Source of the DNA: a virus
Reading direction: 5' to 3' (one strand)
DNA length: 64,000 nucleotides
Virus record (IMG/VR): IMGVR_UViG_3300043399_000587
Span: 60,790-124,789 of that record
The notes under the pieces are model-generated. The model was not told where the DNA came from, searched no databases, and was given only the letters and a program-made list of their open reading frames with translations. A program made the translations under genes and the position numbers. Below are positions 9,005 through 19,866 of the stretch, one piece after another; position 1 is the stretch's first letter, and each line of letters opens with the position of its first letter.

Positions 9005-9062
9005 GTTGTAGTTTTATCGGACCTCAACTGACACTTGCCTGTCACCGTGACTAAATAATTAT

Positions 9063-10864: not shown

Positions 10865-10878
10865 GTGATAAATAGATA

Positions 10879-17534: not shown

Positions 17535-17555
17535 AGACGTAGAGTAAATACTATA

Positions 17556-18674
17556 ATGAGAGCAACAGAATTCATAACAGAAGCAATATTAGATCCAAGT
17601 GGATGGGGAAACACACCTGACGGTACAGATATTGATTATTTTGGTCTGCGTGTTCAAATGCGTCCTAGTACTTTCTTAAAACTAGCATTACCACTTACAT
17701 CTTCAGTAACAAATCCTGAAGTTGCAAAACACATGAAAACAGGTGGCAAGATTGCATATCCAATGCTTGGTATTGAAATACCCGATGAGTGGCGTAAAGG
17801 AGACTTTAGTCAACCCGCTAAAGTAGTTGACCATGAAGGTAGAAATAGAATGAAAACTTGGATTGAATTAAAAGGTGATGATCCAATACAGGTTAATATA
17901 AAACCACGTGGCGGTCTGATAAGACGTAGAGATTTAACTGACGAATATATTAAAGCTATGAGTACTGGTCTTATTAGTCAACGTGGGAATTTAGTTCAAA
18001 ATCCGTTTGATGCAAGTACAACACTTGAAGAGGCAGAAATAAGAACACCAGCTAGTAAAGAAATTAGAACTTCTTTAAGAAGAAAAGGATATAAATTATT
18101 AGGAAGCGGAGTTGATGCCACAGTATGGGCTAAAAAAACAGGACCTGTAATTAAAATAATTATGCCTGAGGATCATAAAGGATCAGGAACAGCAGGTGAT
18201 ACCTTTATGAAATTTTATGAATTTTGTAGGGAAAATCAAAGTATAGATAATTTACCTAAATTTTCTAATAATGAAGTAGAATTGTTTACCGCAGACAATA
18301 AAGAATATGTAATGGTCACAATGGAAAGACTGTCTTCAATTCCATCTGGTAGTTTTCAAGAAGCAATGGTGTGGATACTAAGCGAGTTAGCAACAGAAAC
18401 TATGTCATGGACTAAAGCAATTACAGTTATAAAAGACCCAAATACGTGGTTATTATTCGATGATGGAATGGACCCAAAAGAAGTAATTAACACGTTTAAT
18501 AGTTTAGATAAAACATCACTATTAGAATATGAAATTCTATATAAACTCATGACATTGTTGTATCATAGAGGCAAAATAAATAAAATTGGTTGGGACTTGC
18601 ACACTGAAAATGCAATGATGCGAGGAAATACAATTGTCATAACCGATCCATGGTTTTCTATGGAAATACAATAA
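17556..18674 (+). CDS. Two-domain protein: ParB-like N-domain + kinase-like domain
   Basis: MRATEFITE leader; DHEGRNR; LLGSG, VIKI, MERL, DLHTEN, ITDPW. Confidence 0.7.
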   Translation: MRATEFITEAILDPSGWGNTPDGTDIDYFGLRVQMRPSTFLKLALPLTSSVTNPEVAKHMKTGGKIAYPMLGIEIPDEWRKGDFSQPAKVVDHEGRNRMKTWIELKGDDPIQVNIKPRGGLIRRRDLTDEYIKAMSTGLISQRGNLVQNPFDASTTLEEAEIRTPASKEIRTSLRRKGYKLLGSGVDATVWAKKTGPVIKIIMPEDHKGSGTAGDTFMKFYEFCRENQSIDNLPKFSNNEVELFTADNKEYVMVTMERLSSIPSGSFQEAMVWILSELATETMSWTKAITVIKDPNTWLLFDDGMDPKEVINTFNSLDKTSLLEYEILYKLMTLLYHRGKINKIGWDLHTENAMMRGNTIVITDPWFSMEIQ

Positions 18675-18723
18675 TGAAACATTTTTAACATCGTGAAAAA
18701 ATGAGTTATGTATTAAATAGCTT

Positions 18724-18817
18724 AAGAACACCCTTAGGACCCGTTTGAGTACGGAGGTGTAGCCGAGAACCCGGGCTTGAACAACAAATTCGCTACTTGT
18801 TGTTCTTAACAGGGTTC
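18724..18817 (+). ncRNA. Candidate structured RNA
   Basis: GC-rich intergenic stretch after TAAATA (18714); stems ACACC/GGTGT, CCGT/ACGG, GAACCC/GGGTTC, GAACAACAA/TTGTTGTTC. Confidence 0.6.
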
Positions 18818-18839
18818 ACTTTACATTTATCTTCGTGTC

Positions 18840-19274
18840 ATGAAAAAAATAATAACAGCAATATTAGTATTGATATCATTTGCTGCTTTTGCACAAAAAA
18901 AGCCTCATGGTGTTACATATGATGCACAAATATTAAGAGTTAGTGACGGTGATACAGTAGTCATATCAGCACCCTTTTTACCAAAACCATTAAAACCAGA
19001 ACTAGCTGTTAGAATATACGGCATTGATACTCCTGAAAAAGGATTCAGAGCTAAATGCTCAAGGGAAGATGCTAGAGGACAAGCCGCGAGTAAATTCACA
19101 AAAGATTTAGTAGCATCCAGCCAAAAGACTCAAGTGACATTATATGATTGGGATAAATTTGGTGGACGAGTTTTAGGCGACATTATTTTAAATGGTAAAA
19201 GCCTACGTGAAATGCTTATTGCTAACGGATATGCTAGAGCATATTTTGGAGAAGCAAAACAAAGTTGGTGTTAA
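18840..19274 (+). CDS. Thermonuclease (SNase-like) with signal peptide
   Basis: DGDTV, RIYGIDTPE, DKFGGRVLG. Confidence 0.9.
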   Translation: MKKIITAILVLISFAAFAQKKPHGVTYDAQILRVSDGDTVVISAPFLPKPLKPELAVRIYGIDTPEKGFRAKCSREDARGQAASKFTKDLVASSQKTQVTLYDWDKFGGRVLGDIILNGKSLREMLIANGYARAYFGEAKQSWC

Positions 19275-19290
19275 TAGATAAATAAATCAT

Positions 19291-19866
19291 ATGAAAGCAA
19301 ATGATTTTGTTAATGAAACTGCTGCTATTGAACTAGCTAAAAAATTGCCTAGTTTAGAAAAGCATGACTATAATACTATTGATAAACTCATGCAGAAAAT
19401 TGCCAAAAAACACAGAATTACAGGTAAAATTTTGCATGACTTGTTTATCAAAAAGTATCGTTCTACTCCGGATAATTGGATCAAAAATAAATTGGATGAA
19501 ACAGATGTTCAATCCGATTTACAACAGGAAGTTGATAAGTTCGCAGATTGGGCTAGCAAAAGACTACATTTAAAAACAAGACCAGTTATAGAACTAAGTC
19601 AAGATACCGAAGAAGCACAAACAGGACATCATACAGGTAGACACACTGAAGGTGACAACAAAGTTTGGGTCTATGTTAAAAATAGAAACTTAGTTGATAT
19701 ATTGCGCACTGTATTTCATGAATTGGTTCACGTAAGACAAGGTGAACTAAGTATGATTAAGCCTGGTTCAAGCTATCCCGGTAGTCCAATAGAAGCCATG
19801 GCTGACATGCTGGCTGGAAAATATATCAAAATTTACGGCGAAAAAAATAGGCATATTTTTCAATGA
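19291..19866 (+). CDS. Zincin-like metallopeptidase with head-targeting-like leader
   Basis: MKANDFVNE; LRTVFHELVH..Q; downstream E..A. Confidence 0.7.
   Translation: MKANDFVNETAAIELAKKLPSLEKHDYNTIDKLMQKIAKKHRITGKILHDLFIKKYRSTPDNWIKNKLDETDVQSDLQQEVDKFADWASKRLHLKTRPVIELSQDTEEAQTGHHTGRHTEGDNKVWVYVKNRNLVDILRTVFHELVHVRQGELSMIKPGSSYPGSPIEAMADMLAGKYIKIYGEKNRHIFQ

What the first reader, a model, noticed from the sequence alone, without database searches (positions are those of the whole stretch)
18714..18817. Late-expressed structured RNA carrying the cassette-junction motif and a loop complementary to it
Seen: after TAAATA (18714) a GC-rich non-coding stretch folds into ACACC(18728)/GGTGT(18756), CCGT(18741)/ACGG(18751), GAACCC(18767)/GGGTTC(18812) and a 9-bp stem (18779-87/18797-805) with loop AUUCGCUAC. 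It contains GGTGTAGCCGAG (18756-67), one mismatch from the junction copy GGTGTAGCGGAG. The loop UUCGCUAC can pair over 8 nt (with G-U) with GURGCGGA, either internally as a pseudoknot or in trans with the junction motifs. It sits in the same late block as the cassette-bearing genes. Inference: possible guide RNA, ribozyme or packaging RNA. I cannot assign a known family, and the match could simply reflect an internal pseudoknot.
Basis: partly seen in the sequence, partly recalled or inferred. Interest (0 to 1): 0.8.

Follow-up and report, generated by a model that had tools for sequence, protein, structure and literature searches.

The report
Pseudoknotted small RNA of giant phages
This stretch is one copy of a tightly folded small RNA, absent from the RNA family catalogue, that hundreds of uncultured giant freshwater phages carry about once per genome; its supposed link to the protein-joint motif does not hold up.

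Summary
The stretch (covariance-model hit 18724-18817, + strand) is a divergent member of an RNA family found in 321 fetched loci of uncultured phage and metagenome contigs. There was no match in Rfam 15, ARAGORN, GenBank phages or 185,579 prokaryote genomes. It occurs 1, 1 and 2 times in three complete 350-525 kb phage genomes.

Covariation supports this fold: a 5' hairpin displaying the near-invariant CCUUAGGACC, then an H-type pseudoknot (S1, S2) with a variable hairpin P4 embedded in it. In this window it is rewritten relative to the family's usual GCUGCU/AGUG(A)GC.

The P4 loop differs between subfamilies while the junction spelling stays the same. The 12-mer resemblance lies on covarying stems and is absent from the closest relative.

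Function is unknown. My best guess is a stable, trans-acting RNA that binds a protein or RNA partner. A ribozyme or a 3'-end element are the main rivals.

First-stage readers of this scan noted the same family in three other genomes.

The parts
18714..18719 (+). TAAATA, a T4-late-promoter-like motif 4 nt before the conserved AAGAAC. It probably starts the RNA near 18724-18727.
   Evidence: 16 of 40 TAAATA sites in the window lie 0-60 nt upstream of ORF starts (7.4% expected); 10 of 237 family contexts have TAAATA within 30 nt upstream. That it acts as a promoter is inferred.
18724..18817 (+). The whole RNA element as matched by the family covariance model R1.
   Evidence: G000 79513-79606 equals window 18724-18817, 60.5 bits, E 5.2e-15, and the only match in the 124.8 kb record. 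One search gives the alignment to the model.
18724..18729 (+). 5' flank AAGAAC, moderately conserved across the family even where upstream genes differ.
   Evidence: at positions -11 to -6 the counts are A100, A91, G66, A92, A96, C70 of 131 distinct sequences.
18728..18760 (+). Hairpin domain P1 (ACACC 18728-32 with GGUGU 18756-60), enclosing L1 and P2.
   Evidence: helix 1 is 84.6% paired and 2 pairs show changes on both sides. Variants are ACAU/AUGU, ACCC/GGGU, UCUUCAC/GUGAAGA and CUCG/CGAG.
18732..18741 (+). L1: the near-invariant 10-mer CCUUAGGACC. It is a loop or junction in most members, but is fully paired with CCUAAGG in some subfamilies.
   Evidence: C128, C131, U131, U130, A130, G131, G131, A119/G12, C131, C127 of 131, partly forced by the search patterns. 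L1 was left free; the variants were CCUCAGGACC, CCUUGGGACC and GCUUAGGACC, one each. The paired form appears (L232 type).
18741..18754 (+). P2, an optional small hairpin (CCGU 18741-44 with ACGG 18751-54).
   Evidence: helix 2 is 90.3% paired and 3 pairs show changes on both sides. P2 is absent in the 78-82 nt members.
18761..18777 (+). Pseudoknot stem S1 (AGCC 18761-64 with GGCU 18774-77). Its 9-nt loop GAGAACCCG holds the 5' strand of S2.
   Evidence: S1 is 100% paired in 149 sequences, and 3 of 4 pairs covary (G-C 87 / A-U 42 / C-G 18 / U-A 1; G-C 94 / C-G 55; C-G 141 / G-C 8).
18767..18772 (+). S2 5' strand, GAACCC. It pairs with 18812-18817.
   Evidence: 6 Watson-Crick pairs, -10.9 kcal/mol, reached by 176 of 20,000 shuffles. 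The same pairing is kept in L262. The family equivalent GCUGCU:AGUG(A)GC covaries.
18779..18805 (+). P4, the hairpin embedded in the pseudoknot (18779-87 with 18797-805). Its loop L4 is AUUCGCUAC (18788-96).
   Evidence: the P4 pairs covary strongly, including a newly found outermost pair at A2 columns 71/110. L4 types are listed.
18812..18817 (+). S2 3' strand, GGGUUC. It occupies the place of the family's AAGUGAGC tail.
   Evidence: Tail and S2 5' strand change together across the family.

Best explanation
The stretch is a gene for a small structured RNA of about 94 nt on the + strand. It belongs to a family carried, usually once per genome, by uncultured freshwater giant phages that use T4-type late promoters.

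The fold, supported by covariation, has two parts:
- A 5' hairpin domain (P1, with or without P2) that carries the near-invariant CCUUAGGACC (L1).
- Directly abutting it, an H-type pseudoknot. Stem S1 has a loop that pairs with the 3' tail to form S2. A variable hairpin P4 is embedded between them, and two A residues lie before S2.

The window's copy is a variant. Its S2 has been rewritten (GAACCC:GGGUUC instead of GCUGCU:AGUG(A)GC), and it has its own TAAATA promoter.

Inferred, not shown: the RNA is made late, either from its own promoter or from read-through of the gene before it. Its 3' end is tucked into the pseudoknot, which would make it a stable particle. It then works in trans by offering L1, and in most members loop L4, to a protein or RNA partner, as a decoy, regulator or RNP component. 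It is not a guide for the junction motif.
For: Family and fold:
- 321 fetched loci hold an element, found by six independent pattern scans.
- Covariation on 53 sequences: 90.3% paired against 77.0 in shuffles.
- Covariation on 149 sequences: 96.6% against 76.9, 0 of 500 shuffles reaching it.

Pseudoknot S2:
- Loop GGGUGCU goes with tail AAGUGACC or AAACGACC in 10 of 11 distinct sequences. Loop GGCUGCU goes with a ...GAGC tail in 182 of 182.
- L362 has GCCACU:AGUGGC, all Watson-Crick.
- The window and L262 have GAACCC:GGGUUC.

Copy number:
- The window's own record has 1 copy.
- Complete genomes G001, G002 and G003 have 1, 1 and 2.

Strand:
- The near-invariant U.G (148 of 149) and G.U (146 of 149) pairs in S2 would be mismatches on the other strand.
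- Reverse-strand model scores are 10-16 bits, against 59-111 forward.

Not a known family.
Phage-only: 0 hits in genome contigs.

Independent gene:
- 10 of 237 contexts have TAAATA within 30 nt upstream, 6 of them without an abutting ORF.
- L032, L036 and L045 sit in long gaps or ahead of a strong terminator.

No fixed neighbour: 17 upstream and 14 downstream protein clusters.

The window's variant appears with no difference across 18694-18838 in contigs of two other studies, while the flanks differ.
Against: - No transcript data. No RNA run holds the stretch, so expression, ends and stability are all inferred.
- 164 of 237 contexts start within 25 nt of a stop codon of a same-strand open frame. 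This also fits a cis-acting 3'-UTR element.
- No partner protein is indicated by gene neighbourhood.
- L1 is fully base-paired inside the RNA in some subfamilies (L232 type, L025, L060, L075). This sits awkwardly with a simple 'displayed seed' model.
- The near-invariance of the tandem G.U pairs and the bulged A in S2 looks more like a ligand or catalytic site than a passive scaffold.
- Invariance of L1, the S2 core and the tail is partly forced by the search patterns.
Confidence: 0.55

Rival explanations
1. Self-cleaving ribozyme of a new class. The compact pseudoknot with conserved tandem G.U pairs and a bulged A cuts the transcript, for instance at the conserved AAGAAC before P1. This would free the RNA or the upstream mRNA.
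For: - It is intergenic, single-copy, phage-borne, has no fixed gene partner, and usually abuts the preceding gene. From my own knowledge, twister, pistol, hatchet and HDV-like ribozymes occur this way in phages. The theta-ribozyme paper PMC10879173 was seen only as a search listing.
- There are highly conserved nucleotides in and around a pseudoknot.
- The 5' flank is conserved upstream of P1.
Against: - No Rfam ribozyme model matches, even at E<=10.
- The window and L262 replace the whole conserved S2 core with plain Watson-Crick pairs yet are maintained. That is hard to reconcile with a catalytic core located there.
- The HDV-like topology is not met: there is no hairpin between the S2 5' strand and the S1 3' strand.
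Confidence: 0.15
2. Cis-acting mRNA element. It would be a 3'-end stabiliser or processing stop for the gene before it. In this window and the other SNase contexts it would instead be a 5' leader of the nuclease gene.
For: - 164 of 237 contexts begin within 25 nt of a same-strand stop codon, and 99 of 237 have the next gene's TAAATA within 45 nt after the tail.
- In the window no TAAATA or terminator lies between the RNA and the SNase ATG at 18840.
- A 3' end buried in a pseudoknot should resist 3' exonucleases (general knowledge).
Against: - There are only 1-2 copies per 350-525 kb genome.
- Upstream genes fall into 17 unrelated clusters.
- Some copies stand alone with their own promoter-like motif.
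- The 10-mer L1 and the loop L4 are conserved far beyond what a structural block needs.
Confidence: 0.15
3. Metabolite-binding aptamer. It would be riboswitch-like, for instance for a 7-deazaguanine precursor made by these phages, built on the same plan as the preQ1-II riboswitch.
For: - The architecture is a 5' hairpin plus an H-type pseudoknot with an embedded hairpin and A-rich linker. This matches what I recall of preQ1-II.
- The window encodes a deazaguanine cluster, per earlier notes listed that I did not test here.
- S2 contains near-invariant non-Watson-Crick features.
Against: - RF01054 and all other riboswitch models fail to match.
- The S2 3' strand holds no Shine-Dalgarno sequence or terminator.
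- Promoters often lie between the RNA and the next gene, and the downstream genes are functionally unrelated.
Confidence: 0.07
4. First reader's idea. Loop UUCGCUAC base-pairs in trans with the codon-locked junction motif GU(A/G)GCGGA in mRNA or DNA, acting as a guide.
For: - There is 8-nt complementarity, at -10.1 to -10.4 kcal/mol.
- The motif is real and over-represented: 9 copies in the window's own record and 16 in three complete genomes, against 0 for the reversed control.
- The motif is about 4 times denser near the RNA: 71 copies in 1286 kb of flanks, against 16 in 1244 kb.
Against: - The loop type varies while the motif spelling stays the same.
- 33 of 131 distinct members lack the complementary loop.
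- The target pattern GURGYGRR is short enough to occur by chance about 30 times per strand in 125 kb (my arithmetic).
- The motif encodes GVAE linkers, so the enrichment near the RNA is explained by shared location in the packaged-effector gene block.
Confidence: 0.04
5. DNA-level element such as a replication origin, recombination site or protein operator, rather than an RNA.
For: - It is single-copy, and CCTTAGG and the S1/S2 core are near-palindromic.
- It frequently lies upstream of a dsbA-like DNA-binding protein gene.
- The 5' and 3' halves occur in different combinations (window against L262).
- A.C and G.U counts in variable pairs do not discriminate the strands: 27 against 23.
Against: - Stems covary freely in sequence, which selects for intrastrand pairing, not for protein half-sites.
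- The pseudoknot pairing between distant segments, and the near-invariant G.U pairs, make sense only for one folded strand.
Confidence: 0.04

Closest known systems
preQ1-II riboswitch (Rfam RF01054); its architecture is recalled from memory
   Same: Both have a dispensable 5' hairpin followed by an H-type pseudoknot. In each, the hairpin loop pairs with the 3' tail, and an extra hairpin is embedded before the 3' strand.
   Different: No covariance-model match. The 3' strand is not a ribosome-binding site. There is no consistent downstream gene, and promoters intervene. The conserved nucleotides are unrelated.
Candidate structured RNAs of IMG/VR phages (Fremin, Bhatt & Kyrpides 2023, PMC10690425)
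   Same: Same data source (IMG/VR intergenic regions) and same kind of object: a 30-151 nt covarying motif of unknown role. I read the outline and section 2.1-2.2.
   Different: The paper's text names no motif with these features.
HDV-like / theta ribozymes of phages
   Same: Small pseudoknotted RNAs in phage intergenic DNA, with a variable hairpin inside the knot.
   Different: The defining nested double pseudoknot needs a P3/L3 hairpin between the two 5' strands and the P1 3' strand. Here there are 0 nt between the S2 5' strand and the S1 3' strand. No Rfam match.
phi29 packaging RNA (pRNA); recalled from memory
   Same: A single-copy, phage-encoded structured RNA with sequence-conserved loops.
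   Different: No Rfam match. The phage lineage is unrelated. No pair of mutually complementary loops was found by mutual information.
tRNA and tRNA-like RNAs
   Same: The L1 core CUUAGGA has the format of an anticodon loop (UAG), and L4 holds UUCG as a T loop does. The phages carry 33-34 tRNAs.
   Different: ARAGORN and RF00005 do not call it. There is no sequence similarity to the phage's own class II tRNAs; scores of 19-25.5 compare with shuffle means of 22-23. There is no acceptor stem or CCA.

Membership tests
Any Rfam 15 family (4227 models) | Score at or above the family's gathering threshold | tested here: not met
   Whole window: 0 matches. 18500-19000 at E<=10: three hits of 13-19 bits against thresholds of 43-114. 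Consensus copy L013 at E<=10: 0. Nine loci at gathering threshold: only 5 tRNAs, located elsewhere. Six further subtypes at E<=1: nothing at the elements.
tRNA | Cloverleaf recognised by ARAGORN or RF00005 | tested here: not met
   No similarity to the phage's own Leu, Ser or Tyr tRNAs.
Intrinsic terminator | G+C-rich hairpin followed directly by a U run | tested here: not met
   0 terminator-like sites in 18400-19400. No conserved hairpin-plus-U run follows the tail in 64 distinct downstream flanks.
preQ1-II-type riboswitch | The 3' strand of the pseudoknot sequesters the ribosome-binding site of a queuosine-related gene | tested here: not met
   The tail AAGUGAGC or GGGUUC is not a Shine-Dalgarno sequence. 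Downstream genes fall in 14 unrelated clusters, often behind their own promoter motif.
preQ1-II-type riboswitch | Specific binding of preQ1 | not testable with these tools
   Needs in-line probing or ITC.
HDV-like ribozyme | Nested double pseudoknot with P3/L3 and P1.1 | tested here: not met
   No nucleotides lie between the S2 5' strand and the S1 3' strand (A2 columns 66/67). Minimal members have no internal hairpin at all.
Self-cleaving ribozyme (any class) | Site-specific self-scission | not testable with these tools
   Needs an in-vitro transcription and cleavage assay.
Interspersed repeat / mobile intergenic element | Many copies per genome | tested here: not met
   1, 1 and 2 copies in complete genomes of 367, 352 and 525 kb; 1 copy in each of three fragments.
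   Seven loop types share one dominant junction spelling, GGTGTGGCGGAA.
T4-type late transcription unit | TATAAATA-like motif a few bases upstream of the start | tested here: inconclusive
   The window has TATTAAATA ending 4 nt before AAGAAC. The motif is enriched before ORFs. There are no transcript data.

The most novel reading that the evidence does not exclude
In the roughly three quarters of members that carry loop (A/C/U)UCGCUAC, including this window's copy, the loop pairs with the codon-locked joint GU(A/G)GCGGA of the polyprotein genes, as RNA or DNA. It would mark those joints for cutting, pausing or module exchange. The RNA's own GGUGU(A/G)GCC segment would act as an internal mimic of the target. 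Members with other loops would have lost or changed this activity. This would be an RNA-guided process acting on protein-module boundaries in a phage.
Probability: 0.04. Interest if true: 0.9.

Novelty: categorically new. Interest (0 to 1): 0.66.

Why it matters
A roughly 80-105 nt RNA is present about once in each of hundreds of giant-phage genomes. It has a 10-nt invariant element, a covariation-proven pseudoknot and no match to any curated RNA family. That makes it a strong candidate for a new functional RNA class, whether ribozyme, aptamer, decoy or RNP component.

Giant phages of this T4-like lineage are uncultured, so a conserved RNA is one of the few handles on their biology that can be tested in vitro without a host.

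The window's copy is useful in its own right. It replaces the conserved pseudoknot stem with different, complementary sequence. This both supports the fold and shows which conserved nucleotides are dispensable for maintenance.

The result also removes a tempting but unsupported link between this RNA and the codon-locked joints of the packaged polyproteins.

Caveat: the family may be among the 8,495 unnamed candidate motifs of PMC10690425. I could not inspect that list.

Tried and rejected
- tRNA or tRNA-derived origin: rejected.
- Interspersed repeat or PeSL-like cassette: rejected on copy number.
- Internal pseudoknot GUAGC/GCUAC: rejected. Subfamilies read GAAGAGCC or GUGAGCC at that place with the same loop, and the U is held by a covarying P1 pair.
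- Loop UUCGCU with tail AGUGAG (6 bp with 2 G.U, -5.5 kcal/mol), proposed by earlier readers: not favoured. The tail is kept in 33 of 131 members that lack that loop. The loop is kept in the window, L262, L234/L244 and L246, which lack that tail. Mutual information links the tail to the S1 loop, not to L4.
- L1 pairing with the tail (CUUA:UGAG, 4 bp): no test was possible because both are invariant.
- Stop-codon read-through or frameshift signal: the spacing from stop to P1 varies from 1 to 5 nt, frames differ, and some copies have no upstream ORF.
- HDV-like fold: the topology does not fit.
- G.U against A.C counts for strand choice: uninformative, 23 against 27.
- Expression: no RNA holder is listed for the stretch. 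The contigs laid say nothing about transcripts.
- L234's loop:tail match (GUAAAAU:AUUUUAU, -3.9 kcal/mol) is A+U-rich and weak. I count it only as a hint.
- GenBank phages: no match to the window's or the consensus copy, so no cultured carrier is known.
- Literature: searches (listings only) showed no paper that describes this motif. PMC10690425 was read in outline and in section 2.1-2.2. Its supplements are closed and may list the family.
- Neighbourhood search for a partner protein: none is consistent. The most common neighbours are a dsbA-like 86-aa protein, ESAA-leader proteins and a TctC-like binding protein.
Full report
**Observation**

- ACACC 18728-32 / GGTGT 18756-60.
- CCGT 18741-44 / ACGG 18751-54.
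- GAACCC 18767-72 / GGGTTC 18812-17.
- A 9-bp stem 18779-87 / 18797-805 with loop AUUCGCUAC.
- TAAATA at 18714-19.

GGTGTAGCCGAG (18756-67) is one mismatch from the exact junction copy at 40735-46 on the minus strand.

A further stem, AGCC 18761-64 / GGCT 18774-77, was missed. It turns GAACCC/GGGTTC into a pseudoknot.

The stretch lies between a 372-aa ORF (17556-18674) and a secreted SNase-family nuclease gene (18840-19274). The C-terminal half of the 372-aa ORF resembles a phage protein-kinase family.

On its own the fold is only mildly better than shuffles: z -2.59 on the + strand and -3.60 on the - strand.

**Where the window comes from**

The window is bases 60790-124789 of a 124,789-base virus record. 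CheckV rates the record 36% complete, which implies a genome of roughly 350 kb. The only cultured relative found for the upstream protein is Ralstonia jumbo phage RsoM2USA, at 37% identity over 37% of the protein.

**A family, not a singleton**

Of 8 loci that encode a homologue of the upstream protein, 2 (L002, L007) carry a recognisably similar element right after its stop codon. L003, which has the same SNase gene downstream, has none.

Patterns built from different conserved blocks then found many more copies:

| Collection | Stretches |
|---|---|
| viral contigs | 48 |
| viral contigs | 84 |
| metagenome contigs | 22 |
| 185,579 prokaryote genomes | 0 |
| GenBank phages | 0 |

In all, 321 fetched loci hold an element.

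Each conserved block was left free in at least one scan:
- With L1 free, only three single-sequence variants appeared: CCUCAGGACC, CCUUGGGACC and GCUUAGGACC.
- With the interior of the S1 hairpin free, 101 of 103 distinct sequences had GCCGGCUGCUGGC. The other two had GGGCGGCUGCUGCCC.

**Fold**

A 53-sequence alignment (A1) gave 90.3% paired cells, against 77.0 +/- 0.7 in shuffles. Cells with changes on both sides numbered 158, against 52 (0 of 500 shuffles). Slid controls reached at most 47.1%.

The wider sets showed that the apparently invariant 'P3 hairpin' is really a short stem S1 whose 7-nt loop pairs with the 3' tail. The evidence:
- Among 194 distinct sequences, loop GGCUGCU goes with a ...GAGC tail in 182 of 182. 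Loop GGGUGCU goes with ...GACC in 10 of 11. So C:G switches to G:C, with one exception (L294).
- L362 has loop GCCACU and tail AGUGGC. This turns the two G.U pairs into C-G and A-U and drops the bulged A.
- On A2 (149 sequences, a sample described under Tried and rejected), 16 pairs are 96.6% paired, against 76.9 +/- 0.6 in shuffles (0 of 500) and at most 44.6% when slid.
- S1 is 100% paired, with three of its four pairs covarying. S2 is 99.7% paired.
- A mutual-information scan recovered these helices and added an outermost P4 pair that abuts S1 (columns 71/110). It found no covariation linking L1 or L4 to anything else.

The plan of the RNA is therefore: 5'-AAGAAC, then P1 (holding L1 = CCUUAGGACC, with or without hairpin P2), then S1 5', S2 5', S1 3', hairpin P4 (loop L4), AA, and S2 3'. 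This is an H-type pseudoknot with an embedded hairpin, directly stacked under P1.

**The window's copy**

The family model R1 matches window 18724-18817 at 60.5 bits. It is the only hit in the record. Typical copies score 73-111 bits.

The window keeps P1, L1, P2, S1, P4 and L4. Its S1 loop is GAGAACCCG and its tail is GGGUUC. These form 6 Watson-Crick pairs at -10.9 kcal/mol, a match that 176 of 20,000 tail shuffles reach.

The same S2 occurs in L262, joined to a different 5' domain. So the variant is not a private accident, and the 5' and 3' halves can be recombined.

Contigs from two other studies carry the window's form across 18694-18838 without a listed difference, while both flanks differ. 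These are close strains, so the support is weak.

The canonical tail and the canonical S1 loop are always present together or absent together. They are absent in the window, L262, L234/L244 and L246. This is what a pairing partnership predicts.

**Copy number and setting**

Complete genomes of 367, 352 and 525 kb hold 1, 1 and 2 copies. Three fragments hold 1 each.

Flanking genes are not fixed: 17 upstream and 14 downstream protein clusters among the first 71 contexts. The commonest downstream genes, tallied by eye from the N-termini listed, are:
- A dsbA-like 86-aa protein (phrog_639 at 6e-9; PF11126 below its cut-off).
- Proteins with an ...ESAA.EL... leader.
- A TctC-like binding protein.

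Of 237 distinct contexts:
- 164 begin within 25 nt of the stop codon of a same-strand open frame.
- 99 have a TAAATA within 45 nt after the tail.
- 10, the window among them, have a TAAATA within 30 nt upstream.

In the window, TAAATA is promoter-like. Sixteen of 40 sites lie within 60 nt upstream of ORF starts (7.4% expected), often only 4-6 nt before the ATG.

The RNA therefore seems to be made either from its own late-type promoter, as in this window, or by read-through from the preceding gene. No transcript data exist for it.

**The junction-motif idea**

The motif GGWGTRNCGGAR is real. There are 9 copies in the window's record and 4, 5 and 7 in the three complete genomes, against 0 for the reversed control. 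The dominant spelling is GGTGTGGCGGAA.

Loop UUCGCUAC can pair with 8 nt of it. But L4 is not a constant of the family:

| L4 loop type | Distinct sequences (of 131) |
|---|---|
| UUCGCUAC | 85 |
| CUCGCUAC | 4 |
| AUCGCUAC | 9 |
| GUCGUG | 25 |
| CCGGGAAU | 4 |
| AGGGAUG | 3 |
| AAUGGAAC | 1 |

Loci with the non-complementary GUCGUG loop carry the same junction spelling: 9 copies in 5 of 25 loci.

The 12-mer resemblance in the window is made of the P1 3' strand, the S1 5' strand and the window-specific S2. All of these vary or covary elsewhere.

The motif is about four times denser in the RNA's flanks than genome-wide. I attribute this to the RNA often lying in or beside the block of packaged-effector genes.

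**Known families**

No Rfam 15 model matches any of the subtypes tried, and ARAGORN finds nothing. The phage's own class II tRNAs show no similarity. No terminator-like site is present.

The architecture is that of the preQ1-II riboswitch as I recall it, but the features that make that family a riboswitch are not met. The HDV-like topology is also not met.

The IMG/VR survey PMC10690425 (outline and section 2.1-2.2 read) may list this motif among 8,495 unnamed candidates in supplements I could not open.

Three first-stage notes of this scan describe the same family in other genomes.

**Mechanism**

Shown: a conserved, roughly single-copy, phage-only RNA with the fold described above.

Inferred:
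- Late or read-through expression.
- A stable particle, because the 3' end is locked in the pseudoknot and the A-rich linker can line the S1 groove.
- Action in trans through L1, and in most members through L4, on a protein or RNA partner.

I put about 55% on this package, and most of the uncertainty is in the last step. The rivals are a new self-cleaving ribozyme (15%), a cis 3'-UTR or leader element (15%), a ligand-binding aptamer (7%), the junction guide (4%) and a DNA-level site (4%).

Two observations remain unexplained:
- L1 keeps its sequence whether it is a loop, a junction or one strand of a perfect helix.
- The tandem G.U pairs and bulged A of S2 are almost invariant, yet are dispensable in the window's variant.

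Noticed in passing
window, e.g. 17545-17555, 19279-19290, 10869-10878, 9052-9062: TAAATA often ends only 4-6 nt before the ATG of + strand genes (7 of the 16 gene-proximal sites). If it is the late promoter, many late mRNAs of this phage would be leaderless or nearly so.
   Followed up: partly
window 17556-18674: The 372-aa protein upstream of the RNA matches a phage protein-kinase family (phrog_15752, 2.2e-10, residues 165-365). It starts with the MRA.EF..E leader that earlier notes ascribe to capsid-targeted proteins.
   Followed up: partly
L262:5135-5250 compared with window 18724-18830: The window's 3' domain (S1, rewritten S2, P4) is joined in L262 to a different 5' domain, the ACACACUACC...UUUGCGUUAU type. 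That 5' domain elsewhere goes with canonical 3' domains. So the halves of the RNA gene are exchanged between lineages, with the break at the P1/S1 boundary.
   Followed up: partly
L232, L235, L250 and relatives (metagenome contigs): A subfamily in which CCUUAGG is fully paired with a downstream CCUAAGG (7 bp) and S1 is CCGGCGG...CUGCCGG. L1's sequence is kept although it is no longer single-stranded.
   Followed up: no
L032 about 45 nt after the RNA tail (also L053): A strong terminator hairpin, AUAGGACC-UAA-GGUCCUAUUUUU. Its 3' strand GGUCCUA is complementary to L1 (UAGGACC). This may be chance or an L1-terminator interplay.
   Followed up: no
Loci with the dsbA-like gene downstream, e.g. L061, L065, L070: A sigma-70-like promoter (TTGCAA, 17 nt, TATACT/TACAAT) lies between the RNA and the dsbA-like gene. 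The neighbour is therefore probably an early or middle gene, unlike the late-type TAAATA contexts.
   Followed up: no
G001 and G002 (complete relatives): They have 33 and 34 tRNA genes in one cluster each. In G002 the RNA lies about 5.5 kb downstream of the cluster on the same strand.
   Followed up: partly
window 18686-18694: Contigs of runs X5 and X7 break homology with the window between 18686 and 18694 (loose ends). In those strains the promoter+RNA+SNase unit therefore follows a different upstream sequence. L003 has the SNase gene without the RNA.
   Followed up: partly
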